NCBI GenBank assembly: GCA_963666055.2
Contig: CAXWPH010000015.1
Coordinates: 1,120,001-1,184,000 of the forward strand
Reading direction: 5' to 3'
Origin: Acidobacteriota bacterium
Lineage (GTDB): Bacteria; Acidobacteriota; UBA890; WLXD01
DNA length: 64,000 nt
Positions 34,860-50,840 of this stretch are shown here, piece after piece; the stretch's first letter is position 1; each line of letters begins with the position of its first letter. The notes under the pieces were generated by a model. That model saw only the letters and a list, made by a program, of their open reading frames with translations. It had not been told where the DNA came from and ran no database searches. The position numbers and the translations under genes were made by a program.

Positions 34860-35189
34860 ATGGGTGGTGCAGGGTTCCTGGGAGAATTCGAGCATCTGGT
34901 ATTGCTCGCGGTAATGCAGCTCGGCGAGGCGGCGCATGCGATCAGCGTGCGACGCCGCATTGAGAAGCGCGCCGGACGATCGGTGGCGCGCGGTGCGCTG
35001 TACGGGACGCTGGCGCGGCTGGAAGACAAAGGCTTCCTCGACTGGCAGGTCGAGGAGGCGACTCCGGCGCGTGGCGGGATTCCACGGCGACGCTTCACTG
35101 TCACAGACGACGGGCTGGGCGCGCTGCGGATGTCGCAGCGGGCGATCGCTAGCCTCTCGGAAGGCCTCGAGAGCGCGCTCGAGCAATGA
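34860..35189 (+). CDS. PadR-family transcriptional regulator
   Basis: [12 protein letters not shown]...[16 protein letters not shown]...[12 protein letters not shown]. Confidence 0.92.
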
Positions 35190-37898
35190 GCTCACGACGT
35201 CGCCCAGCCGACGCTTCACCGCCGCGGATTGCCGAGGCTTGGCTGCTGCGGCGACTCGCCGCATCTCCGGCGGCGCAGGTCGTCATCGGCGATCTTCGCG
35301 AGGAGTACGTTGAGCTGCGCGCACGTCGCTCGCCGCTTGTCGCCGGGCTCTGGTACTGGGTGCAAGCGTTGCGCCTGGCGTTCTCGCGTCGCGCCGGCGC
35401 ACTGCGCCGTCCTCCTGTCACTCGAACCGGATCCCCGCATCGGTTGGGCTACGTCGAGATGATCACGTCGATTCTGCAAGACCTACGCTACGGACTGCGA
35501 GCGCTGGCCAAGAGCCCGGCGTTCACCATTGCCGCGGTGTTGACGCTGGCGCTGGGAATTGGTGCCAACGCTGCCATCTTCAGCATCGTCAACGCGGTGC
35601 TACTCCGGCCGCTGCCGTTCCCGCAGCCCGATCGGCTGGTGCGGATCTACTTCGGCCTATCCGGAGCGTGACTCGTGGGGCGGCAACGTCTCGCCCGACG
35701 ATCTGCGCGACTGGCGCGAGCAAGGCTCCTCGTTCGAGCAGATCTCCGCTTTCCCCTACGTCTCGCTCGCCGGCTTCGTGTTGACGGGTGGAGATCGGCC
35801 CGAGTCGTTACAGGCGCACTTCGTTGAGGAGATGTTCTTCGAGACGCTCGGTACGCCGCCGTTGCGCGGGCGCACGCTGCAGCTCGGCGACCACGTGGAC
35901 GGCAAGAATGCCGTCGCCGTGCTGTCGTATCGGAGCTGGCAGGGGCGTTTCCACGGCGATGTATCCATCGTTGGGGCGACGATTACGCTGAGCGACAGCC
36001 CCTTCACAGTCATCGGTATCATGCCGCCGGGCTTCGATTACCCGTCGGCAGATGCGGAGATCTGGGTGCCCTTGTCGCTCATTCCGGAGAGGGGCATCCC
36101 CCGCCAGCGCGGCGTTCGCTTCCTCGCCGCGGTCGGCCGTATGAGTCCTGGAGTGAGCCTCGCGGCGGCGCAGGCCGAGCTCACGACGGTGGCGCGCCGC
36201 CTGGCGGCCGAGTACCCGGAATCCAACGATCAGCTCACCGAGGTGCGGCTCGTGCCGCTGCATGATCAACTGACGGCGGGCGCCCGAGCCGGCTTGCTGA
36301 TGCTTCTCGGTGCGGTGGGCACGGTGCTGCTGATCTGCTGCGCTAATGTTGCCAACCTGATGCTAGTGTGAGCGCAGGCGCGCACGCGGGAGTTCGCCGT
36401 GCGCGCGGCGCTGGGCGCCAGTCGAACTCGCCTGGCCCGGCAGCTGCTGACCGAGGCGGTGCTGCTAGCGGCGGTCGGGGGCGCGGCTGGCACGGCACTG
36501 GGCTCACTGGTGCTGCGTTAGCTCATAGCCGTGGCGCCGGCGGCGGTTCCGCGGCTCCGTGAGGTGGGTCTCGATCCGGCGACGCTGCTTTTTACCTCGC
36601 TGGTGTCCTTGGCTACGGGGGCGCTGTTCGGACTCGCCCCCGCCTGGCGCGCCTGGCGGGGCGATCTTCAGGCCGAGATCCGCATGGCGGGCGGCAGCGG
36701 CGCGGAGACCCGCGGCCACAGCCGCATGCGCGGCGCGCTCATCGTCGCCGAAGCGGCGCTCGTGGTGGTTCTGGCGATCGGAGCCGGCCTACTGCTCCGT
36801 AGCCTCGACAATCTGCTCAGCGTCGACCCGGGTTTCGACGCCGAGCGTGCTGTATCGATGCAGGTAACGGTGCCCGGCTACAAGTACACCACCAGCGAGG
36901 AGATCCAGCAGTTCTTCCTCGAGGTGCTCGAGAGCGTTCGCCAGGTTCCCGGCGTAGCCGCCGCGGGTCTCGTGCGACCCATGCCGTTGGCACCAGATAC
37001 GTTCCAGGGGGAGGACTTCCGATTTACCGTGGTCGGGCAACCGCCGCCGGTCGAGGGGCAGGAGCCGGCCGCGGTGCTGCGCTTCGCGTCCGCGGGTGTC
37101 TTCGAAGCCATGGGGGTACCGTGGATCGCCGGGCGTGACTTCACCGCGGCCGATGATCGCTCACTTGACCGGTTGATGGGCGTTATCAACCAGAGTATGG
37201 CCGACCGATTCTGGCCCGACGAGAACCCGGTCGGGCAGCGGATTGCCAACGACTACATCGAGCTCGAGGTCATCGGCGTGGTCGGCGACGTGCGCCAGTC
37301 CAGTCTGGACGAGGAGATCCGCAACGTTGTCTACACCTCGCTCCGGCAAGTCACACGAGTCGGCATGACGCTTGTCGTGCGCACCGAAAGCGATCCTGTG
37401 CCGCTGCTACCGAACATTCACGCGGCAATCTGGGAGATCAACTCGGATCAGACGATCGAGGGTGTTACGACGCTCGGCGGGCTCGTGGGGCGGTCGGTGT
37501 CGCAACCGCGGTTCTCGGCGTTGCTCGTCGGCCTGTTCGCCGGCCTGGCGCTGCTCCTCGCGGGCATTGGCGTATACGGGGTGGTGTCAAACGCGGTGGC
37601 GCAACGGGCTCGCGAGATCGGCATCCGAATGGCGCTCGGTGCTCGCGGTATCGACGTCGCGCGCTGGGTAGTTGGACAGGGTATGGCATGGGTCGGTCTC
37701 GGGATCGTCCTCGGCCTGGTGGCTTCGATGGGCCTCAGCCGGCTGGTTTCGTCGCTGCTGTTCGGTGTGGGCGCCATGGATCCGCTGACCTATTCCGGAG
37801 CAGCGGCGGTTCTCGGCACCGTCGCCCTGATCGCGAGCCTGCTGCCTGCCCGGCGCGCTATCGCCTTGGATCCGGTCAAGTCTCTGCGAGCCGAATAG
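35186..37898 (+). pseudogene. ADOP-family ABC permease pseudogene
   Basis: Intact permease motifs but a frameshift near 35651 and in-frame stops TGA (36369-36371) and TAG (36519-36521). Confidence 0.9.
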
Positions 37899-37920: not shown

Positions 37921-40536
37921 TCAGGGCGCCTGTTGGCCCCCTGAGCCGTCGTCATTTCGAGCGTGGCTGAGACCGAACTCAACACGCTGAACGAGCCCGG
38001 CGGCGCCGATCGTGACCGTCGTTGGCCAGCAGTTGACGCCGTAGCGTCCGGAGATCGATCTGTCGGGGTCGGGCACGAGGCGAAGCGTCAGCTCATGCTC
38101 TCGCGCGAAACGGGTCACCTGCTCGGGATCCTCTCCGTCGCCGACCGCGAGAATCACCGGTGCGTCCTCGTCGGCCCGATCGTGCAGGGCTTGCAGCTGC
38201 CGTAACTGAGCCAGGCAAGGTGCCGAGAACCCTTTCCAGAAGCTCAGCAATACGGAGCGGCCGCGCAGCCGTCGCAGGGCAATCGGTTGGTCCCCGATGG
38301 GCTCGATCAGAAAGTCCAGGGCGCGGCGCCCCGGCGTCACCGTCAGGCGCAGCGGGCTGGAGGTCGGTGGTGGTCCGGTGATCGCGTGCTCCTTGAGTGC
38401 CCGTGCCAGCGCGTCTGTATCCAGCGCGCCCGCCTTGTCCCACACGAACTCACCATGGGCGTTCATCAGGAACGTCGCCGGTGCCGTCTCGACGCCGAAG
38501 GCGCGCGACCAGGCGCCGCCGTAGTCCTCGGTGATCTCCAGGGAGGCGGTGAAGCCGCGACCGGGGGAGCCGAGCCCGCGTTCCACCGCCGAGCGCGACT
38601 CGCCAAAGGACCCCGCCGGCATCACCAGGTACATTGCCACGTGAGTATCCTCGCCGACCCCCGCGAAGGCTTCCCCGAGGCCCTCCAGCGGCGCCGACCC
38701 AGGCGCGGCGAAGTGAAACAGCACGTTGGGGCCGGAGCTACCGGCGCGCTTCGAATGGGCGAGCACGTTGACGTGTGCCGTGATCGCCTCGTCGAGGATG
38801 AGTTCGGGCGGCGGATCGGGCAGCCAAATGGGCGCCATGATGGTCTCCCACCACGACGGCATCGCCCACACGAACTCCTTGCCGTTGACTGAGCAGGTCT
38901 CTCCGCCGTCGACGGCCTGCTCGAACCCCGTCTCATGCACCTGCGTGCCGACGACGCGCAGGCAGAGCTTCTTGCCGGTGGGCACGTCCTTCTCGAGCAG
39001 CACGAAACGGTGCTCGTCGGCGTGTACTTTGGTCTCGGCCTCCCACGGGATCCAGGCGTGTCCTTCGGTCCAGGACCATTCGAACCGGTCCGTCGCACCG
39101 GCCGGCACCCAGCTCTGGAGCGCCGTGTAGCCGTCATCGTTGGCTCGCGGCGTGAACTCCACGAACACGTCGGAGCGCCCACCCGCCGTGATATCGCCGT
39201 GCAGGACGATACCGTCGGGAACGATATCGAGCGACGAGTAGCGTGCGGTGGCGCCGTTGTCGAACGACTTGACGATGTCCTGCATCGACACACCGTCGAT
39301 CAGCGCCTCTTTCATCGCCGTCTCCGCCTGGGCGAGCGCCGGGCCTTGCTGTGCCTGTACCGCGCTCTTGACGGTGCCGATGGCCGCCGACGGCAGGCCG
39401 GACACAGAAAGGCCGCCGGCTTGCAACGACACGGTCTGGGTCGCCGCATCCAGGGAGGCGGTGATCGTCTCGGTGATGGTGAAGTTGTAGTTCGGAAGTA
39501 TCGACCCGGTGACCGCGCTTCCCTGCACCGTCACCTTGATCGAGCCCGTCTGCCAGGTAAGAGACACGCTCGAGATCGAGACGTTGTAGGTCACGGTGAA
39601 AACCCACCAGCCGATCTCGTAGGAGACGCTGAACCCGTTGATCGTGTCCTTGAAGCTTTGCATCTCCGACTCGACGTGCTCACGCCTCACGGCCACCCCG
39701 TACTCGTCGCCGGAGCTCAGGAACAAGTTGTTGACGCTGCCGAGCGCGCTCGCCGCCGGCGCCTCACCCCCCAGAGTCACAGGCAGCGCCACGACCTGAT
39801 TCGAGCCGCTTCCGAGCGGCTTGAAGTTGTCGAAAGGAATGTCGTCCGGTACTTCCACGGTGGTCGGCTCGAAGCCGCTCTTCACGACCTTGCGGACCTG
39901 CGTGGTGATCTTGCCAGCGTCCTCGGAGCTGAGGGTGCCGCTGGCGGGGTGAAACTCGATGTCGTTGTCAGAGTCGATGCTGGCCTCGACGACCGTCTTG
40001 CCCTCCACGAGCTTCGTCCCGATGGCAAAGGTGATCCGCACTTCGCCGTGGATGGGATCGGGGAGCGACAGGGTGTCAGGATCCGGAATGTAGTTGGCGC
40101 GCACCGGGTAATGGGCGGTCACGCTGGAGCCGACCCCGCCGGAAAAGCTGAGCTTCGGCGCGCCGAGCTGCACCTGCGCCAGCCCGCGTACCGTTCCCGG
40201 CGTGGTCATCGCGTCCTGCAGATCGTTGATCTCCTTCCACAGGTCGTCCTTGGCTCTGGACGCCCCTGGAGGCTGTTTCTTGGAGCTGCCGCCCGGTTGC
40301 CCGCCGCCACCGGAGCCAAAGCTGCCGAAGATGGAGCTCGAGTTCCAGTCGATGAACTTCGCCAGCAGGACGGATAGCTTGGTGGGGTCGCCGACCCGCA
40401 GCGCGAAGCTGTGCGGGATGCTCGGCGACACCTCGTCGTGGGCGCCGTTCTGATGCACGCTCGCCAGGATCGTGTTGACAGTCTTGACGCGGACGAGTGC
40501 AACGGCGTCGAAGTCGCCCGTGAGTCCGTTGGCCAT
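37921..40536 (-). CDS. 871-aa multidomain protein: beta-rich N-terminal region plus two C-terminal thioredoxin-fold (TlpA/AhpC-TSA-like) domains
   Basis: C-terminal LRRLRGRSVLLSFWKGFSAPCLAQL...DPDRSISGRYGVNCWPTTVTIG. An upstream degenerate copy has WSRAFGVETAPATFLMNAHGEFVW. GAGG RBS; no obvious signal peptide. Confidence 0.8.
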   Translation of the reverse strand: MANGLTGDFDAVALVRVKTVNTILASVHQNGAHDEVSPSIPHSFALRVGDPTKLSVLLAKFIDWNSSSIFGSFGSGGGGQPGGSSKKQPPGASRAKDDLWKEINDLQDAMTTPGTVRGLAQVQLGAPKLSFSGGVGSSVTAHYPVRANYIPDPDTLSLPDPIHGEVRITFAIGTKLVEGKTVVEASIDSDNDIEFHPASGTLSSEDAGKITTQVRKVVKSGFEPTTVEVPDDIPFDNFKPLGSGSNQVVALPVTLGGEAPAASALGSVNNLFLSSGDEYGVAVRREHVESEMQSFKDTINGFSVSYEIGWWVFTVTYNVSISSVSLTWQTGSIKVTVQGSAVTGSILPNYNFTITETITASLDAATQTVSLQAGGLSVSGLPSAAIGTVKSAVQAQQGPALAQAETAMKEALIDGVSMQDIVKSFDNGATARYSSLDIVPDGIVLHGDITAGGRSDVFVEFTPRANDDGYTALQSWVPAGATDRFEWSWTEGHAWIPWEAETKVHADEHRFVLLEKDVPTGKKLCLRVVGTQVHETGFEQAVDGGETCSVNGKEFVWAMPSWWETIMAPIWLPDPPPELILDEAITAHVNVLAHSKRAGSSGPNVLFHFAAPGSAPLEGLGEAFAGVGEDTHVAMYLVMPAGSFGESRSAVERGLGSPGRGFTASLEITEDYGGAWSRAFGVETAPATFLMNAHGEFVWDKAGALDTDALARALKEHAITGPPPTSSPLRLTVTPGRRALDFLIEPIGDQPIALRRLRGRSVLLSFWKGFSAPCLAQLRQLQALHDRADEDAPVILAVGDGEDPEQVTRFAREHELTLRLVPDPDRSISGRYGVNCWPTTVTIGAAGLVQRVEFGLSHARNDDGSGGQQAP

Positions 40537-40583: not shown

Positions 40584-40982
40584 TCAGATGAGCGTGAAGC
40601 CGGACGTCAATTCGAACTGCGGGGAGGGCTCGCACTCGATCTTCGGCTTGGACAAGGAGACAGGGGGGGCACCCGGCGGGGTGAAACTACAGGAGCAGGT
40701 GACGGTACCCGCGATATTGATTCCTGCACTGCCGACGTATGCAGGGTTCGCGGAGGCTGCTGTGACCGGCGTGTTTTTAGGAGACGACAGCGTGGTGGAA
40801 CCTTCCTCGTCCACCTTTAGCGAGACGTTGATGGTGCTCACCGTGCCGAAGATTGTGCCGGGAAAGCGGAGATCGATCGGTGAGGCCCCTCCCGCTCTGT
40901 CCAGAACGCACCCCACGTATCCGAACAACAGGATGATGGGCAACAGCACCAATGGAATGAGCAGCACGAACCAGTCGACCAT
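40584..40982 (-). CDS. Small putative lipoprotein (132 aa) with atypical signal peptide
   Basis: GGAG RBS; MVDWFVLLIPLVLLPIILLFGYVG-C25, then a beta-rich region with three more Cys. Confidence 0.72.
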   Translation of the reverse strand: MVDWFVLLIPLVLLPIILLFGYVGCVLDRAGGASPIDLRFPGTIFGTVSTINVSLKVDEEGSTTLSSPKNTPVTAASANPAYVGSAGINIAGTVTCSCSFTPPGAPPVSLSKPKIECEPSPQFELTSGFTLI

Positions 40983-41778: not shown

Positions 41779-42216
41779 TTACGAGGGTGTGACGAACATG
41801 GCGAGTCGCCAAAGTGTGGCGCCACCACCCAGGACGATGGCCAGATCTGCCAGGTTGAAAACCGGCCAGATGCGCAAGTCGATGAAGTCGACGACCGCGC
41901 CTCTGAGCGCAATGTCCATGAGGTTGCTGGCGGCGCCACCCAGGGCAGCCCCAATCCCCAGCTGCGCTGCGGGGGCTCGCAGAGCCGCGAGTTGATCGAC
42001 CAGCACCGCGATTCCCAACAGCGAGACCACCCACAGGATGCACAACATGCGCCTGCTACCAAGGAGGCCGTGCCCAAGTCGCGAATTCCGTAGCGGCCGG
42101 ATCCGTGGCGCCCACCAGGCGTCCGAGCCACAACCCGGGCCGGCTCGGCGGATTACGAGCCGCTTGCTTTGTTGGTCGAGCGCCAGCACCACGCCAGCCG
42201 CTAGTAGCCAGATCAT
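41779..42216 (-). CDS. lspA: Lipoprotein signal peptidase II (peptidase A8)
   Basis: [34 protein letters not shown]; both catalytic Asp positions are present. Confidence 0.88.
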
Positions 42217-43643: not shown

Positions 43644-44354
43644 TCAGCCGCCGGCGCGCTCGAGGGATTCCTGCAACCAATCGGATCCGGCCTTCGACCC
43701 CACGGCGCGGGCGAGGAACCCCGTTGCGTTGGCTACCGCGAAGCTGATGCCGCGCACATTGCGCTCTGGGGGCACCCCGGGGATCGGCCGTGGTAGCGGC
43801 GACGCCCGCAGCGTCAGGCCGGCGCCGGGCGCAGCACTGTCTACGATGATCTCGTCGCGGGCACACTCAGCGTCGGCGACGACGCCGACGACCTCGGGCA
43901 GGCTTCCCGGCCACCAGCGCACGGCGCGGTGACTCCGTGCGGAGACCACCAGCAGGCCTGCGTCGCGAGCCCGGAGCACGGCGCCGCGCAGCAGCTCGGC
44001 ATGCTCGCGACGGGGCGTGCCGAGGCTGAGGTTGGCGATCTGCAGGCGTTGCGTTGCGGCCCAGTCGATGGCGCGGGCCAGGTTGGCGGCGCTGGTCGAC
44101 AACGAGGTCTCGAACACCTTCACAACGTGCAGCTCCGCACCGGGCGCCTTTTCCTGGATTGCCGCCGCCACGGCGGTTCCGTGGCCGAGTCGGTCGAGCA
44201 CGTCATCGTGTTCGACGCCGCCTGGGTCAATCGCCACACCGGACGCATACGCTCTGATATGTGGGTTGTCGGTGTTGATGCCGCTGTCGATGATCGCTAC
44301 TCGGACACCGTCTCCGTTGCTGTCAAACGGAGGCTCGTCGAGGCGCCACCTCAC
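43644..44354 (-). CDS. qhpE: Subtilisin-like (S8) QhpC leader peptidase
   Basis: VAIIDSG, GHGT, ANLSLG, GISFA triad; last gene of the qhp cluster. Confidence 0.88.
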   Translation of the reverse strand: MRWRLDEPPFDSNGDGVRVAIIDSGINTDNPHIRAYASGVAIDPGGVEHDDVLDRLGHGTAVAAAIQEKAPGAELHVVKVFETSLSTSAANLARAIDWAATQRLQIANLSLGTPRREHAELLRGAVLRARDAGLLVVSARSHRAVRWWPGSLPEVVGVVADAECARDEIIVDSAAPGAGLTLRASPLPRPIPGVPPERNVRGISFAVANATGFLARAVGSKAGSDWLQESLERAGG

Positions 44355-46147
44355 GTGAGAGAGCGGTCTTGCGGGGGCGCCGCATCGTCGACCGGCTTGG
44401 CGGCCGACCGTTCGACGTCGGTTCCGAACAGTGCCGAGAACGCCCCTGCTCTTGCGGCCAGGGTCTCGGGTGCACCCTGTTCGACGATACGCGCGCCGTC
44501 CACTACCACCACACGGTCTGCACGGCGGGCCATCTCGTAGCGGTGCGAGATCAGCAGTGTGGTACGTCCGCGCATGATCGCCTCGTAGCTGTCGATGACG
44601 TGCCGCTCCGATACTGGATCGAGCGATGCGGTGGCCTCGTCCAGCACCAGCACCGCCGGATCGGCGAGAAACGCGCGAGCGATGGCAATGCGCTGACGCT
44701 CGCCGGCCGATATGGCCGTGCCGCGCTCACCGACCACTGTGTCGTAGCCGTCGGGTAGGCCGTCGATAAACGCCGCGATGCCCGCTGATCGAGCCGCGTC
44801 GCGCACCTGATCGTCGCTGGCGTCGGGCCGCGCGTAGCGGATGTTCTCCGCGATGGAGGTGTTGAACAGGAACGGCTCCTGCTCCACCGCCACGACGTGG
44901 CGGCGCACGTCGTCGAGACGAAGATCGCGTAGCCGGTGGCCATCGAGGCGCACGTCTCCCTCATCAGGGTCGAGATGGCGCAGCAGCAGGTCGACGACGG
45001 TCGACTTGCCACCGCCGCTCGGTCCGACGATGGCGACCACCTCGCCGGGCCTCACCGACAGCGTCACGTCGTCGAGCACCGCGCCACCACGGTCGAACGT
45101 GAAGCTCACCCCTTCGAGCTCGACCTCACCGCGCGCCTCACGTAGAGCAATGGCGTCCTCACGCTCGGTCACCTCGATCGGCGTGTCGAGAATCTCGTGC
45201 ACGCGACCCAGCGATACCCGCGCCGTCGCCAGGTTCGTGTACAAGCCCATCAAGCCCTGCACCGGCGAGAGCAGCCGCGTTTGATAGGCCATGAACGCGA
45301 CCAGATCTCCCATCGTGATGGCGCCGGCGATAACCCGGCTGCCCCCATACAGGAAGACGACCGCAGTGCCGGCGGAGAGGATCAGCCCGGGCAGGCCGCC
45401 GGCCAGGTAGCTGAGTCGCCGCATGCCCATGAGCGCCTCGATGAAGGCATCGTTCTTGCCACGGAACCGACCCTCTTCCCGCAACTGTGCGTTGGACGAG
45501 ACGATGAGCTTCATGCCTTGCAGCGTCTCGATCAGAAAGCTGCCGATGTCGGCGCTGCGCTCGCGCATCGTCAGTACCCTCGACTCGAGCCGCCGGCGAT
45601 AGTAGACCAGCGCCACCATGCTGATCGGCATCAGGATCACGCTCACCGCGAACAGCCGCGCGTCGAGCCAGATCATCACCGCCACGGTGCCAACGAGAAA
45701 CAGGATGTTGCCAACCCAGGCGAGTGCCGTTTCGGCGGCGATGCGCTGGATCTCACCGATATCGTTGTTGATACGCGACACGACGTCACCGAGCTTGGCA
45801 TGGGCGTAGAAGCGTGGTGACAGCCGCTGCATGTGGCGGTACAGATCGAGCCGCATGTCGAAGAGGATCTCGGCCGACACGCGTGTGTAGCGCAGTCCAC
45901 TGACCACGTTGATCGCGAAGCCCAGCAACGTGGCGATGCCGAACAGCGCGATGATGCGCACCAGCGCGCCCATGTTCTGTCCCAGGAGGGCGTTGTCGAC
46001 GAGGTCTTTAGACAGGTAGGGCACATAGAGCGACACCAGCGTGCTGGCGAAGCTGAGCACGATGACCAGAACCAGGCGATGCCAGTACGGCACCACGTAG
46101 GCCAACGCCCAACGGAGCTCGCCGCGGCGCGGCACCCGGGCGGTCAT
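44351..46147 (-). CDS. qhpF: ABC exporter, permease-ATPase fusion
   Basis: Six TM segments, GPSGGGKST, ISAGERQR, LVLDEAT; located in the qhp cluster. Confidence 0.88.
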   Translation of the reverse strand: MTARVPRRGELRWALAYVVPYWHRLVLVIVLSFASTLVSLYVPYLSKDLVDNALLGQNMGALVRIIALFGIATLLGFAINVVSGLRYTRVSAEILFDMRLDLYRHMQRLSPRFYAHAKLGDVVSRINNDIGEIQRIAAETALAWVGNILFLVGTVAVMIWLDARLFAVSVILMPISMVALVYYRRRLESRVLTMRERSADIGSFLIETLQGMKLIVSSNAQLREEGRFRGKNDAFIEALMGMRRLSYLAGGLPGLILSAGTAVVFLYGGSRVIAGAITMGDLVAFMAYQTRLLSPVQGLMGLYTNLATARVSLGRVHEILDTPIEVTEREDAIALREARGEVELEGVSFTFDRGGAVLDDVTLSVRPGEVVAIVGPSGGGKSTVVDLLLRHLDPDEGDVRLDGHRLRDLRLDDVRRHVVAVEQEPFLFNTSIAENIRYARPDASDDQVRDAARSAGIAAFIDGLPDGYDTVVGERGTAISAGERQRIAIARAFLADPAVLVLDEATASLDPVSERHVIDSYEAIMRGRTTLLISHRYEMARRADRVVVVDGARIVEQGAPETLAARAGAFSALFGTDVERSAAKPVDDAAPPQDRSLT

Positions 46148-46163
46148 GTCGAGGAGGCTGCTC

Positions 46164-47306
46164 TCAGGGGCGCCCGGAATCTGTTGCTGGAACCACGATC
46201 AGATCGGTGGTGGTATCGCCGTCTAGCGTCAGCGTACGCTGGTAGCGGTAGTCGGCGGCGCTGTAGATATCGACCGTGTTGCCGGCGTTGAATACGTATA
46301 GCAACTTGCCGTTCGAGCTCGGCATGACGCGCATGCGCGGACGCCCCTCAAAGGTCTGGCGGCTCTCTACTCGCCGACCTTCCAGGTCGAAGGTCCAGAA
46401 CTCGTAGTGGCCGATGCTCTGGAACAGGCCGTACGCCTTCTTGCCATCCGGGGCAAGCGAGAAGCTCACCCCCATGGACGGGCCAAGCGTGTAGTAGTCG
46501 ACGCTCTTGTCCGGCAGGTTGACCCGTGCCACCCCCATCAGACGCCTTCCGTTGATCGGATCGGTGGTGCGGAACAGCCCCGTGAAGAACCCGGGCTCGT
46601 CGTAGATGTTGGGGCTGATACCGAAGTTCAGCGCCCCCATCCCCGACTCCATCGGACGGGAGATCTCCCACGTGTCGACTTCCTCGAAGCTCTCGGTCTC
46701 GAGGATCGTCACCTCCTCGGTCATGATGTACAGCAGGTCGCCGTCGGGCGAGAACATCATCTGGCTGAACTCGCGTTCCACGCCGCCCGGCCAGGGGATA
46801 TCGCGCATGACCTCGCGCGTCTCGAGGTTGTACTGCTGCAACACCGGCGGTCCGATCTCGAAGCGATCAATGAGCTTCGTATCCGTGCTGGTGTGCAGAA
46901 TGAGGTACTCCTCGCTGGGATGGATGGCGACTCGCCAGATCCGCACCTTCGAGTTGTCGTGGCTCAGCGAGTGGACGTCGATGGACTCACGGCTGGCGAC
47001 ATCGAAGATCTCGATGTACTCGAAGTCCGCGCTGGTGGAATAGAGCCGCTGGCGATCGCGCGTCAGCTGCAGGTTACGAGGGATCCCCGCGGTGGCCTCG
47101 ATGCGGTCGACGACCGCCATCGTGGCCTCGTCGATGACCATGATGGCGTGTTCGTAGGTGCCGACGTACATCGTCGCGTTGCCGCCGCTGGGGTGCTGCT
47201 GCGCTGTCGCGCCGCCCAGCAAGAGGCCCAGAACACACAACGTGACGGCGCTCGACAAGACCACCCGCCGGCCAGCGCCGGCTGCGAAGACCCGCGTCGA
47301 GCTCAC
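46164..47306 (-). CDS. qhpB: Quinohemoprotein amine dehydrogenase beta subunit (beta-propeller)
   Basis: GTGA overlap with qhpC; signal peptide; propeller repeats (FSPDGDLLY, LAPDGKKAY, SSNGKLLY); position in the cluster. Confidence 0.78.
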   Translation of the reverse strand: MSSTRVFAAGAGRRVVLSSAVTLCVLGLLLGGATAQQHPSGGNATMYVGTYEHAIMVIDEATMAVVDRIEATAGIPRNLQLTRDRQRLYSTSADFEYIEIFDVASRESIDVHSLSHDNSKVRIWRVAIHPSEEYLILHTSTDTKLIDRFEIGPPVLQQYNLETREVMRDIPWPGGVEREFSQMMFSPDGDLLYIMTEEVTILETESFEEVDTWEISRPMESGMGALNFGISPNIYDEPGFFTGLFRTTDPINGRRLMGVARVNLPDKSVDYYTLGPSMGVSFSLAPDGKKAYGLFQSIGHYEFWTFDLEGRRVESRQTFEGRPRMRVMPSSNGKLLYVFNAGNTVDIYSAADYRYQRTLTLDGDTTTDLIVVPATDSGRP

Positions 47307-47650
47307 GGGAAGATCAGGTCGATCTTGCGCCAATCCTTCTGTGCCGCGGCGCAGGTCTTTGTCCAATCGGGCGTGTAGTTGAGCTGGTCGGGTACCTGTG
47401 CCGGCCAGAAGCAGCCCAGGTAGCAATCGAACAGGTCGCGCTCCACTGGCGAACAAAGGCCCGCGGTCCCGCCGCTGCTGTCGACTTCCCAACCGGGCTG
47501 GAACACCAGCGAGCAGCCGAGCGGAATGTGTGGCTCGTCGGGTTGCTGCGGGACAGCTTGCCCTTGCGGGTCGCTCAAGGCCACCACATCGCGTGCCAGG
47601 TGCTGCTCGATGCGCCCGGCCTTCATGTTGACTGGCTTCAGGTGCTTCAT
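47303..47650 (-). CDS. qhpC: Quinohemoprotein amine dehydrogenase gamma subunit precursor (CTQ-bearing)
   Basis: MKHLKPVN leader; GC....PGWEVD, LC.P.E.DL..C...C.WPAQVPD, DWRK. Confidence 0.95.
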   Translation of the reverse strand: MKHLKPVNMKAGRIEQHLARDVVALSDPQGQAVPQQPDEPHIPLGCSLVFQPGWEVDSSGGTAGLCSPVERDLFDCYLGCFWPAQVPDQLNYTPDWTKTCAAAQKDWRKIDLIFP

Positions 47651-49098
47651 TGGTCCCTACCTTCGAAGATAGCGAGGTAGCCAGGATTGTGCTCGGCTAT
47701 TTCACCATAGACGCGCAAACAGGTGTCGGTCCAGGCGCGGATCCAGTCGCAATAGTGGAGGTTCGGTCCGCGGGTAGTCCCGTAGCGGGTGTGCGCCTCG
47801 TGGTAACAGCCCCCGGCGCATAGGGGTCGTGCCCAGCATTTCTGGCAATCGGTCTTGTCGTCGACGTGATGAGTCTCGAGGAAGTGCAGCTGCTGGCTGC
47901 GATCGATGCCGTCCTCGACGGTGCCGAGCTTGTGCTCATCGGATCCCGCGAAACGGTGGCAGAGCGCGACGTCGCCGCCGGTAGCCACGCCGAGCAGCCC
48001 GAGCCCGGCGCCACAGGGATAGGCCTTGCTTATGCCTTTGTGGATTTCCTCGATGGTGTCCTTGACGTTCGAGAAGCCGTGATGACGGTTCTCGAGCGCT
48101 GCCTCGAGAAACTCCTCGGCGAGCTCGTCGAAGCCTGAGAGCATGGTGTCGAAGCCGTTGTTACCGATCGCCCAGTCGCGACCCCATGACGTGGTGACGG
48201 GGGCGAATCCGACTTCCCTGAAGCCGATATCGTCGCGCAGGTGATGGTAGATACGCTTCACGTCCAGGTTGTTCTTGGTCAGCGTGACCCTGGCACCGAT
48301 CGGCCGCGTCGTATGGCGCTTCAGCAGCTCACGCACCTTGGGAACGATGATGTCGTAGGTACCGCCGCCCCCCTTGAAGACGCGAAGCTCGTCCTGCATC
48401 TCCTTGGGCCCGTCGATCGACACGGTGACACCGATCTCGTTTTCGGTGAGCCACTCGATAATGTCGGGTCGCAACAGGGTGGCGTTGGTGGTGAGGCTGA
48501 ACTCGATGCCCTTGCCGAGCTGCTCGGCGCGCTGGCGCGCGTAGCCAACTGTCTTCTTCAAGACGGGGAAGTTCATCAGCGTCTCACCGCCGAAGAACGT
48601 CAGGTGTACGGTCTCGATCTCGGCCGATTCCTCCAGCATGAAGTCGACGCTCTGTTGTGCCGTCTCCTCGCTCATGAACTTGGGCTGGCGACCGTTCTCG
48701 GTGTCGACGATCTTGTCGTCGCTGTACTCGTAGCAGTAGCCGCAGCTCAGATTGCACTGGTTGGTGACGTTCAGGACCAGCGTGGTCAGCGGGAACGGTG
48801 TCGGCGGCATCTGCTTGGGTAGCGGCTGCGGTGCGGCGCCGGCCTCGCCGACGGCGCGCACTTGCATGAGCTCGTTGACGCTGTGGTAGACGGCTTCCGG
48901 GTCGAAGCGCTCGGCGAGCTGGTCGACCAGCTCGGACGCCGCCATCGGCTTTTCGTCGAGACGCTCGAGGACCGCCGCTGACGTCTCGTCGAGACCGAAT
49001 ACCGCGGCACTGGGAACCATGTAGAGGAACTGCCGGCCGGCCGCCTCGAAGGCGTGGTACTCGCCCACCGACAGCGCTACTTCCGTACGCATGTTCAT
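47647..49098 (-). CDS. qhpD: Radical SAM/SPASM thioether-forming maturase
   Basis: N-terminal RRE-like region; CNLSCGYC; FFGGE; SPASM CGAG...CH...CQKC...CAGGC...C. ATGA overlap with qhpA. Confidence 0.95.
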   Translation of the reverse strand: MNMRTEVALSVGEYHAFEAAGRQFLYMVPSAAVFGLDETSAAVLERLDEKPMAASELVDQLAERFDPEAVYHSVNELMQVRAVGEAGAAPQPLPKQMPPTPFPLTTLVLNVTNQCNLSCGYCYEYSDDKIVDTENGRQPKFMSEETAQQSVDFMLEESAEIETVHLTFFGGETLMNFPVLKKTVGYARQRAEQLGKGIEFSLTTNATLLRPDIIEWLTENEIGVTVSIDGPKEMQDELRVFKGGGGTYDIIVPKVRELLKRHTTRPIGARVTLTKNNLDVKRIYHHLRDDIGFREVGFAPVTTSWGRDWAIGNNGFDTMLSGFDELAEEFLEAALENRHHGFSNVKDTIEEIHKGISKAYPCGAGLGLLGVATGGDVALCHRFAGSDEHKLGTVEDGIDRSQQLHFLETHHVDDKTDCQKCWARPLCAGGCYHEAHTRYGTTRGPNLHYCDWIRAWTDTCLRVYGEIAEHNPGYLAIFEGRDQ

Positions 49099-50840
49099 TC
49101 GCCTGCCTCCCATCCTCTCCAGTTGAGATAAAGCGGCACGGTCACCACAAGGTGCGATCGGCCGCGTAGCGGGTGCTCTTGTCCAATCTCGTCGTAGGCG
49201 GCCACCACCCAGACGTCGCCGATGTTATTGCGGTTGCCGACGCGCTCAGGGTTCGGTCCGTCGACCGCGGGGGTGAAGAGCCCATTGTCGTCGAGAGTAC
49301 CGACATACTCCAGGTCCTCGTCGTTGAACGTCGCGGCGTACTCCTCGAGGCTCCAGTCCACCTCGACGACGCCCAGGTCGAGGTCGTCTGCTGTTCCGGG
49401 CTCACCGTCGGGCCCGTTGGAAGTGCCGAAGGCCTCGAACTGCGCCAGTTGCTTGGGCGCGACCTCGCCGCCGAGACGCGCCATGCCCCATTCGGGCGAG
49501 ACGCGGATGGAGTCGACCTGTTCGTACACCACCAGGCCTTCCGGTCGGCTTATGTCGCGCACGAAGACATCGCGCAACCCGACCGCAGCGTCGTCGGCAG
49601 CGCTGGCGCGAACGCGAATCGCGCTGTCGCTCGCCTCGATTACCTCGGTGACCTCGACCCCTGGGCCGAGATCGATATCCGCTGTGGTCACATCGGCCGG
49701 CAGATTGGCGCCGAAGATCGTTACTTCGCTGGACCCACCGTCGCTGCGGAGCGCTACTGGGTAGACGCCCGCGATCAACGGAACGTCAGCACGGTACAGC
49801 GTCACGTCGATGCCGATCTCGTCGTACGCGCCGGTGAACCAGCGGCCTTCCATCGTGCGCCAGTCGCGCTCGACGAACATCACCTCACGTAGAGATCCCA
49901 TGAGGTTGCCTTCAGTGCTCGAGCGGCCGCGCCACTGGAAGCCGGTATAGACGATGGCCCGGCCGCTGCGTCGCCTGGTGATCCCGGTGCGCGGGTTGGT
50001 GAGCGCTGCCTCGGTGCGGAACTGGCTGTCGCTGTCGTTCACCGCGCTGATCTCGACCGTGCCATAGACCGGACCATGACCCGGCGAATGGCCGGCAACC
50101 GCCCAGCGGCCGGCGAGACGCGCCGGTCGACGGTTCGCCGACCATGCCGACCACTCGGGAGTGTCGAGCGGGAAGGCCTCGGAGAGGTGCGCGATCGCCT
50201 TGTCCATCGGATGTCCGGAGTCGGCGTCGTCTGCGGCGGGGCCAGATCGCTGCGTACGCCGGAACGCTTGAAAGTCAACGTACGGGAAGTAGCCGCGGTG
50301 CATGGCGATAAGCAGCCCCCACTCGTCCTTGGTGCGGCGCTCGGTGATCACCCGGCCCATCGAATGGCATTGGATGCAGGTCGTCTCGGTGTCGTCGTCG
50401 GCGGTGTAGTCGTGGTCGATCAGCCGCCGCTCAGCCTCGAAGGCGCCCGGCTTGGCCTCCTCGGGAGCCAGCCCGTGGTTGTCGGACAGGTAGCGCACGA
50501 TGTCGCGGGCCATGGCGGGATCGAGCTCGACCCCGTTGAGCATCACCATACGTCGCAGCGTCTGTTGCCATCCTTCAGGTGACTTACGGATGTAGGAGAT
50601 CCGCGTCATATGCCCGTCGTCGTCGACGGCGTGACAAGAGGCGCAGTTGGACACGGTAGCTTCGTCGGTGACCGGGATACCGGCGGCCTTCGAATCGTCG
50701 TCAGAGTCGTTCGAGGTGCCTTCCGACTGCAGTAGTGCGGCGCTCGAGAACGGCGGGGCGGCAAACCCCAGGCTCATGACGACGACAAGCGAAGCCAACA
50801 GGCGGATTCGCGCCGGCGGAAAAACTATTCCTCTGATCAT
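49095..50840 (-). CDS. qhpA: Quinohemoprotein amine dehydrogenase alpha subunit (diheme c)
   Basis: Signal peptide; CASCH and CIQCH; RIS..RKSPEGW, GRAIVYTGFQWR, GPNPER...NNIGD, HLVVTVP. Confidence 0.95.
   Translation of the reverse strand: MIRGIVFPPARIRLLASLVVVMSLGFAAPPFSSAALLQSEGTSNDSDDDSKAAGIPVTDEATVSNCASCHAVDDDGHMTRISYIRKSPEGWQQTLRRMVMLNGVELDPAMARDIVRYLSDNHGLAPEEAKPGAFEAERRLIDHDYTADDDTETTCIQCHSMGRVITERRTKDEWGLLIAMHRGYFPYVDFQAFRRTQRSGPAADDADSGHPMDKAIAHLSEAFPLDTPEWSAWSANRRPARLAGRWAVAGHSPGHGPVYGTVEISAVNDSDSQFRTEAALTNPRTGITRRRSGRAIVYTGFQWRGRSSTEGNLMGSLREVMFVERDWRTMEGRWFTGAYDEIGIDVTLYRADVPLIAGVYPVALRSDGGSSEVTIFGANLPADVTTADIDLGPGVEVTEVIEASDSAIRVRASAADDAAVGLRDVFVRDISRPEGLVVYEQVDSIRVSPEWGMARLGGEVAPKQLAQFEAFGTSNGPDGEPGTADDLDLGVVEVDWSLEEYAATFNDEDLEYVGTLDDNGLFTPAVDGPNPERVGNRNNIGDVWVVAAYDEIGQEHPLRGRSHLVVTVPLYLNWRGWEAGE

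What the first reader, a model, noticed from the sequence alone, without database searches (positions are those of the whole stretch)
37921..40536. 871-aa protein with a possible two-lobed lipid-binding region fused to non-CxxC redoxin domains
Seen: the first ~450 aa are rich in amphipathic beta strands and appear internally duplicated (GDFDAVALVRVKTVNTIL versus GDEYGVAVRREHVESEM), ending LDIVPDGIVLHG. A Trp-rich beta domain follows, then a Cys-less thioredoxin fold and a second fold with SAPC in place of CxxC plus a Cys beside the cis-Pro (NCWP). No signal peptide. Inference: a TULIP/BPI-like lipid tunnel joined to a monothiol redox module, an architecture I do not recognise.
Basis: inference. 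Interest (0 to 1): 0.7.

Follow-up and report, generated by a model that had tools for sequence, protein, structure and literature searches.

The report
Inside-out lipoprotein cassette with TULIP carrier
This 871-residue protein is predicted to start with a tube-shaped lipid-binding fold, and it sits in a four-gene cassette whose two lipid-anchoring enzymes have a reversed charge pattern, so they likely face the cell's interior and would attach lipid anchors to proteins on the inner side of the membrane, the opposite side from the textbook bacterial pathway.

Summary
The ORF is real (37921-40536, minus strand, 871 aa). Its model matches the two-lobed TULIP proteins P47/OrfX3/BPI over residues 1-450 (Z 14.8), followed by an Ig-like sandwich and two ResA-like thioredoxin folds. 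Its 'monothiol redox module' is not family-wide: 39 of 102 homologs lack both cysteines.

The context matters more. The gene ends an lspA-lgt-lipoprotein-TULIP cassette scattered over many phyla (24 of 30 well-flanked genome loci carry all partners), in addition to the housekeeping lgt/lspA.

The cassette's Lgt (55 of 55) and LspA (77 of 77) keep most catalytic residues but have a reversed Lys/Arg bias. Housekeeping copies from the same genomes have the normal bias (25 of 26; 24 of 26). The lipoprotein signal peptides start acidic, without K/R, and the TULIP protein has no export signal.

Best reading: a cytoplasm-facing Lgt/LspA pathway, with the TULIP protein as cytoplasmic holder of the lipid anchor. 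Orientation is inferred from charge alone and reflects one Lgt clade; binding is untested. Nine of 39 loci add PlsA/Ger-like (ether-lipid) genes. My paper searches found no description; an unchecked note of this scan reports the same idea.

The parts
37921..40536 (-). 871-aa TULIP-Ig-Trx-Trx protein (P0001), no export signal; predicted cytoplasmic holder/carrier of the lipoprotein's lipid anchor
39184..40536 (-). Residues 1-451: two-lobed TULIP fold of P47/OrfX3/BPI type, with a variable low-confidence insert at about 50-115
   Evidence: P47 6ekt Z 14.8 (345 aligned, rmsd 4.9); OrfX3 8fbd Z 14.4 (364 aligned, rmsd 6.4); Foldseek E 5e-10 to 1e-8; no Pfam hit
38881..39183 (-). Residues 452-552: Trp-rich Ig/FN3-like beta sandwich with near-invariant C525 (38962-38964) and C548 (38893-38895) on neighbouring hairpin strands; a disulfide is inferred, not measured
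   Evidence: 2c4x Z 8.4, rmsd 2.8, 79 aligned; FN3 modules Z 7.6-7.9; strands; both Cys in 100 of 102
38371..38874 (-). Residues 555-722: ResA-like thioredoxin fold without active-site Cys
   Evidence: ResA 2f9s Z 10.2; Cys at the site equivalent in 3 of 102
37957..38349 (-). Residues 730-860: ResA/TlpA-like thioredoxin fold with SAPC (C774) and CWP (C836, P838)
   Evidence: Pfam PF00578 E 1.6e-15; Z 18.9-19.7; P838 in 101 of 102, C774 in 54, C836 in 57
40584..40982 (-). 132-aa prolipoprotein with acidic start, no basic n-region, long Pro-containing hydrophobic stretch and lipobox YVGC (Cys25); the predicted substrate
   Evidence: only peptide of this type in the genome
41000..41743 (-). Lgt paralog (247 aa) with reversed K+R bias: 4 in canonical-cytoplasmic loops, 14 in canonical-periplasmic loops; keeps Y26, R73, R143, G154, Y235, R239, R246 equivalents; H103->L, H196->I, E243->Q
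   Evidence: Pfam PF01790 E 1.6e-31; housekeeping copy lies elsewhere
41779..42216 (-). LspA paralog (145 aa) with both catalytic Asp equivalents and reversed K+R bias (1 vs 10)
   Evidence: Pfam PF01252 E 1.2e-19; housekeeping copy lies elsewhere

Best explanation
The gene is the last of a four-gene cassette (lspA, lgt, lipoprotein, TULIP protein) whose Lgt and LspA have a reversed charge pattern and so likely sit upside down in the membrane, where they would lipidate and trim their own lipoprotein on the cytoplasmic face, and the signal-less 871-aa protein is predicted to hold that lipid anchor in its TULIP lobes as a cytoplasmic carrier. Steps: (1, shown) the four genes travel together across phyla, beside a separate housekeeping pair. 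(2, inferred from the positive-inside rule) the enzymes' active sites face the cytoplasm. (3, inferred) the prolipoprotein inserts N-out by its acidic, K/R-free start, leaving the lipobox Cys inside; Lgt adds diacylglyceryl and LspA cuts off the signal. (4, inferred from fold and lack of an export signal) the TULIP protein takes up the diacylglyceryl tail, as LolA does in the periplasm; its Ig and thioredoxin folds act mainly as binding scaffolds, with a C774/C836 redox pair in about half of the family. (5, speculative) the carried lipoproteins, whose FN3, LamG and similar domains look like surface binders, are placed on an inner membrane or released with the carrier, perhaps on lysis; where PlsA/Ger-like genes are present the anchor may be an ether or vinyl-ether lipid.
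For: Cassette: of 30 genome loci with at least 2.5 kb on both sides, 27 have lspA, 25 lgt, 27 the lipoprotein and 24 all three; of 5 such metagenome loci, 5/4/5. In 401 genomes of the window's phylum the TULIP part and the cassette-type Lgt occur in exactly the same 3 genomes, even where they lie on different contigs (G358). Distances co-vary: TULIP vs cassette Lgt rho 0.58 (n 21), cassette Lgt vs LspA 0.86 (n 48); TULIP vs housekeeping Lgt 0.18 (n 14). Charge, with E. coli Lgt/LspA as ruler and the canonical sides taken from passages of PMC4728403 and PMC8689077: cassette Lgt bias is negative in 55 of 55 (mean -10.7), housekeeping positive in 25 of 26 (mean +7.5). Cassette LspA is negative in 77 of 77 (mean -7.3), housekeeping positive in 24 of 26 (mean +3.5). 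Total loop K+R is similar for Lgt (0.139 vs 0.133), so the charge has moved sides rather than risen. The result holds when only 8 residues next to each helix are counted. Five of five other extra Lgt paralogs keep the normal bias. Biases of 6-7 mark known oppositely oriented homologs (YdgE/F, YdgQ/L; passage of PMC3962082). All helices stay hydrophobic. Catalytic residues are kept: Lgt R143 53/55, R239 54/55, Y26 50/55, G154 55/55; LspA Asp123 77/77, Asp141 76/77. 0 of 90 signal peptides have K/R in the first six residues and 82 have D/E, while 11 of 11 ordinary lipoprotein-like ORFs of the same genome have K/R. The TULIP fold has no export signal in 0 of 102.
Against: Orientation rests on sequence charge only. 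The cassette Lgts form one clade (27 rows, SH-aLRT 99, quick tree), so 55 of 55 is one event, not 55. The acidic start is partly built in: the profile was trained on peptides picked with a D/E/Q-W pattern, although the first look used the lipobox alone. In 10 of 90 cases an upstream in-frame Met would add K/R (6 of them from three closely related loci). The 15 residues after the Cys are not basic (mean 0.68 K/R, 1.94 D/E), so the substrate lacks a positive-inside signal on its C-side. The mature domains (FN3, LamG, Cys-rich modules in some) and the conserved C525/C548 pair look extracellular. H103 is never His in cassette Lgt (0 of 55; His in 12 of 26 housekeeping) and H196 is lost (His in 26 of 26 housekeeping), so activity is not assured. 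L024 has no lgt/lspA and L028 no lgt within 10 kb. No tunnel was measured.
Confidence: 0.5

Rival explanations
1. The enzymes are inverted as above, but the TULIP protein acts before lipidation: it shields the long hydrophobic, n-region-less signal of the prolipoprotein in the cytosol, or shuttles a special (ether) phospholipid donor to Lgt, rather than carrying the finished lipoprotein.
For: The signal peptide is unusually conserved across phyla (W, two Pro, FAGC lipobox in 67 of 90) while the mature parts vary. The lipoprotein gene usually lies directly before the TULIP gene, often with abutting stop and start. PlsA/Ger-like genes (2x BcrAD_BadFG + DUF2229; same BBD start as Ger in passages of PMC13159169) lie in 9 of 39 genome loci and 8 of 79 metagenome loci.
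Against: The window's genome has no plsA/plsR-like gene, yet has the TULIP gene. Canonical Lgt needs no soluble lipid donor carrier (established knowledge). In G358 the TULIP gene travels with a lipoprotein and away from lgt, which ties it to the cargo more than to the enzyme.
Confidence: 0.2
2. A dedicated but normally oriented lipoprotein pathway: the Arg-rich loops bind the acidic cargo, the lipoprotein is exported despite its odd signal, and the TULIP protein reaches the outside without a signal (hitch-hiking or lysis) and works there.
For: Mature cargo is net acidic in 75 of 84 and made of surface-type domains. The C525/C548 pair would fit an oxidising compartment. Second lgt copies serving particular lipoproteins are known (section 13 of PMC13251419). 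The 15 residues after the Cys are not basic.
Against: It does not explain the loss of K/R from the canonical-cytoplasmic loops (Lgt 12.8 to 2.5; LspA 6.6 to 1.1) in two unrelated enzymes, nor the K/R-free signal starts. Other extra Lgt paralogs keep the normal bias (5 of 5). The cargo shows no even-cysteine bias (19 even, 37 odd, 28 none).
Confidence: 0.18
3. One reading: a lipid tunnel joined to a monothiol redox enzyme, for example one that reduces oxidised lipids held in the TULIP lobes.
For: TULIP fold. S-x-x-C resembles the T/S-x-x-C of peroxidatic sites (motif recalled). C774 and C836 co-vary (48 both, 39 neither of 102) and may form a pair.
Against: 39 of 102 homologs lack both cysteines and 18 have none in that domain, while the fold, Trp and cis-Pro stay. 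Position 767 is Trp/Val rather than the peroxiredoxin Pro, and a cis-Pro stands where peroxiredoxins have Arg (recalled). It does not explain the fixed link to lgt, lspA and a lipoprotein.
Confidence: 0.07
4. A toxin accessory like P47/OrfX: the TULIP protein escorts a toxin or effector, and the variable lipoproteins are its receptor-binding or immunity parts.
For: The closest structures are P47 and OrfX3, whose genes consistently neighbour toxin genes (passages of PMC7020563). The cargo is variable, comes in 1-3 copies and has binding-type domains.
Against: No toxin or secretion-system family among 117 flanking ORFs scanned against Pfam (141 were picked, and about 30 had no family). No conserved neighbour other than the core and the PlsA-like pair. 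No PADLOC match for 8 cassette proteins. No sequence link to P47/OrfX.
Confidence: 0.05

Closest known systems
Canonical bacterial lipoprotein pathway (Lgt, LspA, then Lnt/Lol; E. coli Lgt, PMC4728403; LspA structures reviewed in PMC8689077)
   Same: Homologous Lgt (PF01790) and LspA (PF01252) with most catalytic residues; substrates with a hydrophobic stretch ending in a lipobox Cys.
   Different: K+R bias reversed in both enzymes; substrates without a basic n-region; an extra set beside the housekeeping pair; LspA N53/G55/R115 and Lgt H103/H196 equivalents lost; no lnt or lol gene seen in the cassette; a TULIP protein as fixed partner.
P47 / OrfX2 / OrfX3 (bacterial two-lobed TULIP proteins of orfX-p47 clusters; 6ekt, 5wix, 8fbd, 8bgm)
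   Same: Two-lobed TULIP fold of about 450 aa (Z 14.4-14.8); P47 is reported to bind lipids in vitro (passages of PMC7020563, PMC13030710).
   Different: About 10% identity, no Pfam or profile link; fused to an Ig and two thioredoxin folds; neighbours are lgt, lspA and lipoproteins, not toxins.
BPI / LBP / CETP
   Same: Two-lobed TULIP topology (Foldseek E 1e-8 to 3e-7).
   Different: Eukaryotic secreted proteins; TM-scores on the target only 0.31-0.34; no fused redoxin.
LolA (periplasmic lipoprotein carrier; recalled)
   Same: Proposed role: soluble holder of a lipoprotein's acyl anchor.
   Different: Unrelated fold; periplasmic; works with LolCDE, which has no counterpart in this cassette.
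ResA / TlpA / CcmG thioredoxin-like proteins
   Same: Fold (Z up to 19.7) and cis-Pro loop.
   Different: No CxxC (0 of 102), tandem copies, no membrane anchor; databases name these proteins 'peroxiredoxin', 'redoxin domain-containing' or 'TlpA family' from this tail alone.
Skillet-1 Lipocone with serine-lipobox partner (bioRxiv 10.1101/2025.01.14.632903, passage)
   Same: An operon-encoded private lipidation enzyme beside a lipobox-like protein with variable binding domains.
   Different: Different enzyme family and a Ser acceptor; no inverted orientation or TULIP-redoxin partner in the passages seen.
PlsA/Ger ether-lipid synthases (passages of PMC13159169)
   Same: The optional neighbour has the two-activator + DUF2229 (BBD) architecture.
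   Different: Split into two genes; the second subunit has no Pfam/NCBIfam hit; activity untested; absent from the window's genome.

Membership tests
TULIP superfamily, P47/OrfX type | Two TULIP lobes (long helix wrapped by a twisted antiparallel sheet) | tested here: met
   P47 Z 14.8, rmsd 4.9, 345 of 419 aligned; OrfX3 Z 14.4; Foldseek E 5e-10; predicted model, mean pLDDT 76, pTM 0.51
TULIP superfamily, P47/OrfX type | Sequence match to the P47 family | tested here: not met
   No Pfam family for residues 1-730 at E <= 0.1; profile of the TULIP part finds 0 PDB sequences at E <= 10
TULIP superfamily, P47/OrfX type | Hydrophobic cavity that binds lipid | not testable with these tools
   Model coordinates not on hand; the conserved alternating hydrophobic pattern of the strands is compatible only
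orfX-p47 toxin clusters | Neighbouring toxin gene | tested here: not met
   No toxin family among 117 of 141 picked flanking ORFs scanned; unnamed ORFs remain
TlpA/ResA disulfide reductases | Thioredoxin fold with cis-Pro | tested here: met
   Z 18.9-19.7; P838 in 101 of 102
TlpA/ResA disulfide reductases | CxxC active site | tested here: not met
   0 of 102; NCBIfam ResA score 68.8 against cut-off 170
Peroxiredoxins | P-x-x-x-T/S-x-x-C motif and catalytic Arg (recalled) | tested here: not met
   Position 767 is W in 66, V in 17 of 102; C774 in 54 of 102; cis-Pro kept
Lgt (PF01790) | Seven helices and catalytic Y26, R143, G154, R239 | tested here: met
   Pfam 109.9 bits, cut-off 24.9; residues kept in 50, 53, 55 and 54 of 55; helices hydrophobic
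Lgt (PF01790) | H103 and N146 of the E. coli enzyme | tested here: inconclusive
   H103 is F/L/Y/V and N146 is C in cassette Lgt; Y/W/F and C substitutions also occur in other Lgt (PMC13251419 section 13)
Canonical lipoprotein pathway | Cationic cytoplasmic side, active site on the extracytoplasmic side | tested here: not met
   By K+R bias only: reversed in 55 of 55 Lgt and 77 of 77 LspA; the real orientation needs an experiment
LspA (PF01252) | Two catalytic aspartates | tested here: met
   Asp123 77 of 77, Asp141 76 of 77
Sec/SPII lipoprotein signal peptide | Basic n-region | tested here: not met
   0 of 90 with K/R in the first six residues, by the nearest start; 10 of 90 have an upstream Met that would add K/R
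Sec/SPII lipoprotein signal peptide | Hydrophobic stretch ending in a lipobox Cys | tested here: met
   FAGC 67, FVGC 11, FTGC 4 of 90
PlsA/Ger (optional neighbour) | Two BcrAD_BadFG domains, DUF2229, then HGD-D parts | tested here: inconclusive
   BBD part found in 3 of 3 large proteins scanned; no HGD-D hit in the partner subunit

The most novel reading that the evidence does not exclude
Bacteria from many phyla share a mobile cassette that runs the lipoprotein pathway inside out. A flipped Lgt and LspA make diacylglyceryl-cysteine proteins on the cytoplasmic leaflet, at times with an ether-lipid anchor from a PlsA/Ger-like pair. A P47/OrfX-type TULIP protein serves as a cytoplasmic LolA, packing the lipoproteins into soluble carrier-cargo particles that bypass Sec.
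Probability: 0.4. Interest if true: 0.95.

Novelty: categorically new. Interest (0 to 1): 0.85.

Why it matters
In the sources read here (PMC4728403, PMC8689077) Lgt and LspA work on the outer side of the cytoplasmic membrane. A flipped pair would mean a class of cytoplasm-facing thioether lipoproteins, with signal peptides that predictors trained on basic n-regions would likely misread. It would also be a case of two enzymes and their substrate reversing orientation together, whereas the precedents read are transporter subunit pairs. It would give the first concrete cargo for a P47/OrfX-type TULIP fold, whose role is open, and perhaps a tool to lipid-anchor proteins inside bacteria. The inversion can be tested cheaply with reporter fusions in E. 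coli K-12, and cultured carriers exist (Smaragdicoccus niigatensis; Roseimicrobium gellanilyticum Lgt; Streptomyces chartreusis TULIP protein). The family is sizeable: 656 representatives at E <= 0.001.

Tried and rejected
Sequence evidence for the internal duplication: not found. Profile of the TULIP part against PDB sequences: 0 hits. The two VIA-align lists of the whole model were filled by the thioredoxin tail. In one search only P47 and OrfX3 represent the N-terminal part, and none does within the 50 rows; this says nothing against other TULIP families. Plasmids: no match. PADLOC: none for 8 proteins. Other genomic copies of the signal peptide, or plsA/plsR, in the window's genome: none. 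Expression: no RNA holder listed, which is no evidence either way. The complex prediction (TULIP protein with the prolipoprotein) and the protein atlas were not available, so binding stays untested. The P47 structure paper PMC5902665 is not held. Even-cysteine bias in cargo as a sign of export: none. Paper searches listed no paper that, by title or abstract start, describes a TULIP-redoxin fusion, a TULIP gene with lgt/lspA, or an inverted Lgt/LspA. I saw listings only for most of them (all rows in 29, 34, 35, 73, 80, 112; the top 15-25 rows of 63, 29, 114 and 37 papers in 56, 82, 117, 118). Subscription papers and supplements were not searched; Table S2 and Fig. S8 of PMC13251419 (multi-copy lgt genomes) may list some of these paralogs. 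Rows dropped before counts: one cassette Lgt for low coverage (L067), fragments under 225 aa (Lgt) or 125 aa (LspA), duplicates, three housekeeping Lgt loci not recovered by the script (L153, L156, L163), and the second lgt/lspA pair of L095 (its Lgt was scored and is also reversed, 6 vs 13). The 39 genome loci include one match to the redoxin tail only (L044) and partial or frameshifted genes.
Full report
Observation. The ORF at 37921-40536 (minus strand) encodes 871 aa. Pfam covers only the tail (AhpC-TSA 736-851), and PDB sequence hits are ResA-type proteins on the same stretch. A first search gave 12 full-length homologs at 27-49% identity. A profile of the first 451 residues finds 656 representatives at E <= 0.001 and 325 at 1e-30 among 1.84 billion; the full-length hits among the best 150 are mostly 830-950 aa.

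Anatomy. AlphaFold2 on 13 sequences gave mean pLDDT 76 and pTM 0.51. Residues 1-450 match two-lobed TULIP proteins: OrfX3 (E 5e-10), BPI (1e-8) and P47 (1.5e-8) by Foldseek, and P47 at Z 14.8 (rmsd 4.9, 345 aligned) and OrfX3 at Z 14.4 by VIA-align. Residues 452-722, folded alone (pLDDT 83), give an Ig/FN3-like sandwich (Z 7.6-8.4, a middling score) and a ResA-like fold (Z 10.2). The last domain is ResA-like at Z 18.9-19.7. The two TULIP lobes show no real sequence likeness (probability 4%); the two thioredoxin folds do (88%). In 102 full-length homologs the invariant positions are structural (G7, H28, G118, Q123, W476, W487, P838) plus C525 and C548 (both in 100). C774 is kept in 54 and C836 in 57; 48 have both and 39 neither. 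So redox chemistry may exist in about half of the family but is not its core. None of the 102 has a signal-like N-terminus or a twin-arginine motif, and 101 begin directly with the first TULIP motif.

Neighbours. Upstream on the same strand lie a 132-aa protein with a lipobox, an Lgt and an LspA. The genome has a second, housekeeping lspA-lgt pair elsewhere. Thirty-nine genome loci come from records titled Rokubacteria, Alpha-, Gamma- and Deltaproteobacteria, Planctomycetota, Verrucomicrobiota, Acidobacteriota, Actinomycetota, Gemmatimonadales and others. Of these 35 carry lspA, 33 lgt and 33 the lipoprotein signal. Among the 30 with 2.5 kb on both sides, 24 carry all three; the profiles were built from cassette members, so this shows recurrence, not independent identity. 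Seventy-nine metagenome loci (the best of 151), mostly short, repeat the pattern in several gene orders, and so do two loci of the distant clade. In 401 genomes of the window's phylum the TULIP part is in 3 and the cassette-type Lgt in the same 3; none of 10 sampled relatives in the window's family has either. Distances of the cassette proteins track each other, and not the housekeeping Lgt. Together this points to a unit that moves sideways. Besides the core, only a PlsA/Ger-like pair recurs across phyla (9 of 39 and 8 of 79 loci). No toxin, secretion or defence family appeared.

The reversed charge. Reading the alignments, I noticed Arg-rich loops where E. coli Lgt and LspA are periplasmic. 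I fetched E. coli lgt and lspA as rulers and the best-scoring Lgt and LspA of 27 cassette-bearing genomes as controls. Canonical sides came from passages of PMC4728403 (head and arms periplasmic and acidic, cytoplasmic side basic) and PMC8689077 (LspA termini cytoplasmic, beta-cradle outside); helix limits I set from the E. coli sequences. K+R in canonical-inside minus canonical-outside loops is +9 for E. coli Lgt, positive in 25 of 26 housekeeping copies (mean +7.5; one zero) and negative in 55 of 55 cassette copies (mean -10.7; window 4 vs 14). For LspA it is +6 in E. coli, positive in 24 of 26 housekeeping (mean +3.5) and negative in 77 of 77 cassette copies (mean -7.3; window 1 vs 10). Every inside loop loses charge and every outside loop gains it. 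The total stays similar for Lgt (0.139 vs 0.133; LspA 0.136 vs 0.109), the aligned helices stay hydrophobic, and five unrelated extra Lgt paralogs keep the normal bias. Known oppositely oriented homologs differ by biases of 6-7 (passage of PMC3962082). The cassette Lgts are one side of a branch (SH-aLRT 99, quick tree, midpoint drawing, 59 rows, 25 cassette rows subsampled plus 2), so this is one event seen in two enzymes, not dozens of independent cases.

Substrates. Ninety signal peptides share M-x(0-1)-D/E-W, a long Pro-containing hydrophobic stretch and F-[AVT]-G-C. None has K/R in its first six residues and 82 have D/E, whereas all 11 ordinary lipoprotein-like ORFs picked from the same genome without any demand on the n-region have K/R. 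This fits N-out insertion with the Cys inside. There are three limits: the profile was trained on acidic-start examples; 10 of 90 have an upstream Met that adds K/R; and the residues after the Cys are not basic. Mature parts vary (FN3, LamG, repeats, an unnamed C-terminal domain in 56 of 84), are mostly acidic and show no even-cysteine bias.

Mechanism. Shown: the cassette, the folds as predicted, the retained catalytic residues, the reversed charge and the missing export signal. Inferred: inverted enzymes (about 0.75), cytoplasm-facing lipidation, and the TULIP protein holding the anchor (about 0.5 jointly). Speculative: where the cargo ends up. Its surface-type domains and the C525/C548 pair suggest an outside destination, which would need release without Sec, and no exporter is encoded. 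The ether-lipid link rests on domain architecture only. The Lgt may be altered in chemistry, as His103 and His196 are lost; substitutions at H103 occur in other Lgt (section 13 and passages of PMC13251419). Binding between TULIP protein and cargo is untested.

What is known. I read passages of PMC6791001 (bacterial TULIPs; no mention of thioredoxin), PMC7020563 (no mention of lipoprotein or redoxin), PMC13030710, PMC13159169 and the Lipocone preprint (a private Ser-lipobox system and a periplasmic TULIP fusion, both different). Ten searches listed nothing on this cassette or on an inverted Lgt/LspA; their limits are given under Tried and rejected. Three look-ups in this scan's notes were empty. 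A fourth, made after my charge test, returned an unchecked AI note on another genome with the same inside-out reading; it is not counted as support.

Verdict. The real finding is a widespread four-gene cassette whose sequence features all point to a lipoprotein pathway facing the cytoplasm, with a P47/OrfX-type TULIP protein as fixed partner. Interest 0.85; categorically new if the orientation is confirmed, otherwise a new variant of a dedicated lipoprotein pathway.

Noticed in passing
L009, L010, L013, L022, L025, L026, L039, L040, L042; L050, L063, L071/L075, L076, L096, L097, L099: A PlsA/Ger-like pair (about 1255 aa with 2x BcrAD_BadFG + DUF2229, and about 500 aa without Pfam hit) lies inside or beside the cassette in varied order and orientation; it is absent from the window's genome.
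   Followed up: partly
L020:9385-9996 and 55 other cargo proteins: 56 of 84 mature lipoproteins cluster by a C-terminal stretch of about 150-170 aa that had no NCBIfam hit in the examples scanned; it was not folded.
   Followed up: partly
L197 (G358:C4) and L134 (G358:C1): The cassette is split in this genome: reversed-type lgt, two acidic-start lipoproteins and lspA on one contig, TULIP plus one lipoprotein on another.
   Followed up: yes
L010, L011, L039, L071/L075, L095: Loci with two or more TULIP genes, or a second reversed-type lgt/lspA pair; L011 has three TULIP genes, partly frameshifted or fragmentary.
   Followed up: no
window 44351-50840 (-): ABC transporter, beta-propeller, small ORF and PqqD-radical SAM protein next to an S8 protease (43644-44354); looks like a quinohemoprotein amine dehydrogenase-type gene cluster (label recalled; Pfam domains).
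   Followed up: no
window 34860-37898 (+): PadR-like gene followed by a MacB/FtsX-type permease that is split over three frames (35186-35671, 35559-36371, 36531-37898); frameshifts or sequence errors.
   Followed up: no
L045 (G000:C15:941043-941954): The housekeeping Lgt of the window's genome has Tyr at the H103 position, Cys at N146 and E151, and a long insert in arm-2.
   Followed up: no
L104, L120, L123: Cargo lipoproteins made of repeats with a GDIPVPGDY-type motif (FG-GAP-like, label recalled).
   Followed up: no
L025:293-2190: Dyp peroxidase plus encapsulin next to the PlsA-like pair; seen in one locus only.
   Followed up: no
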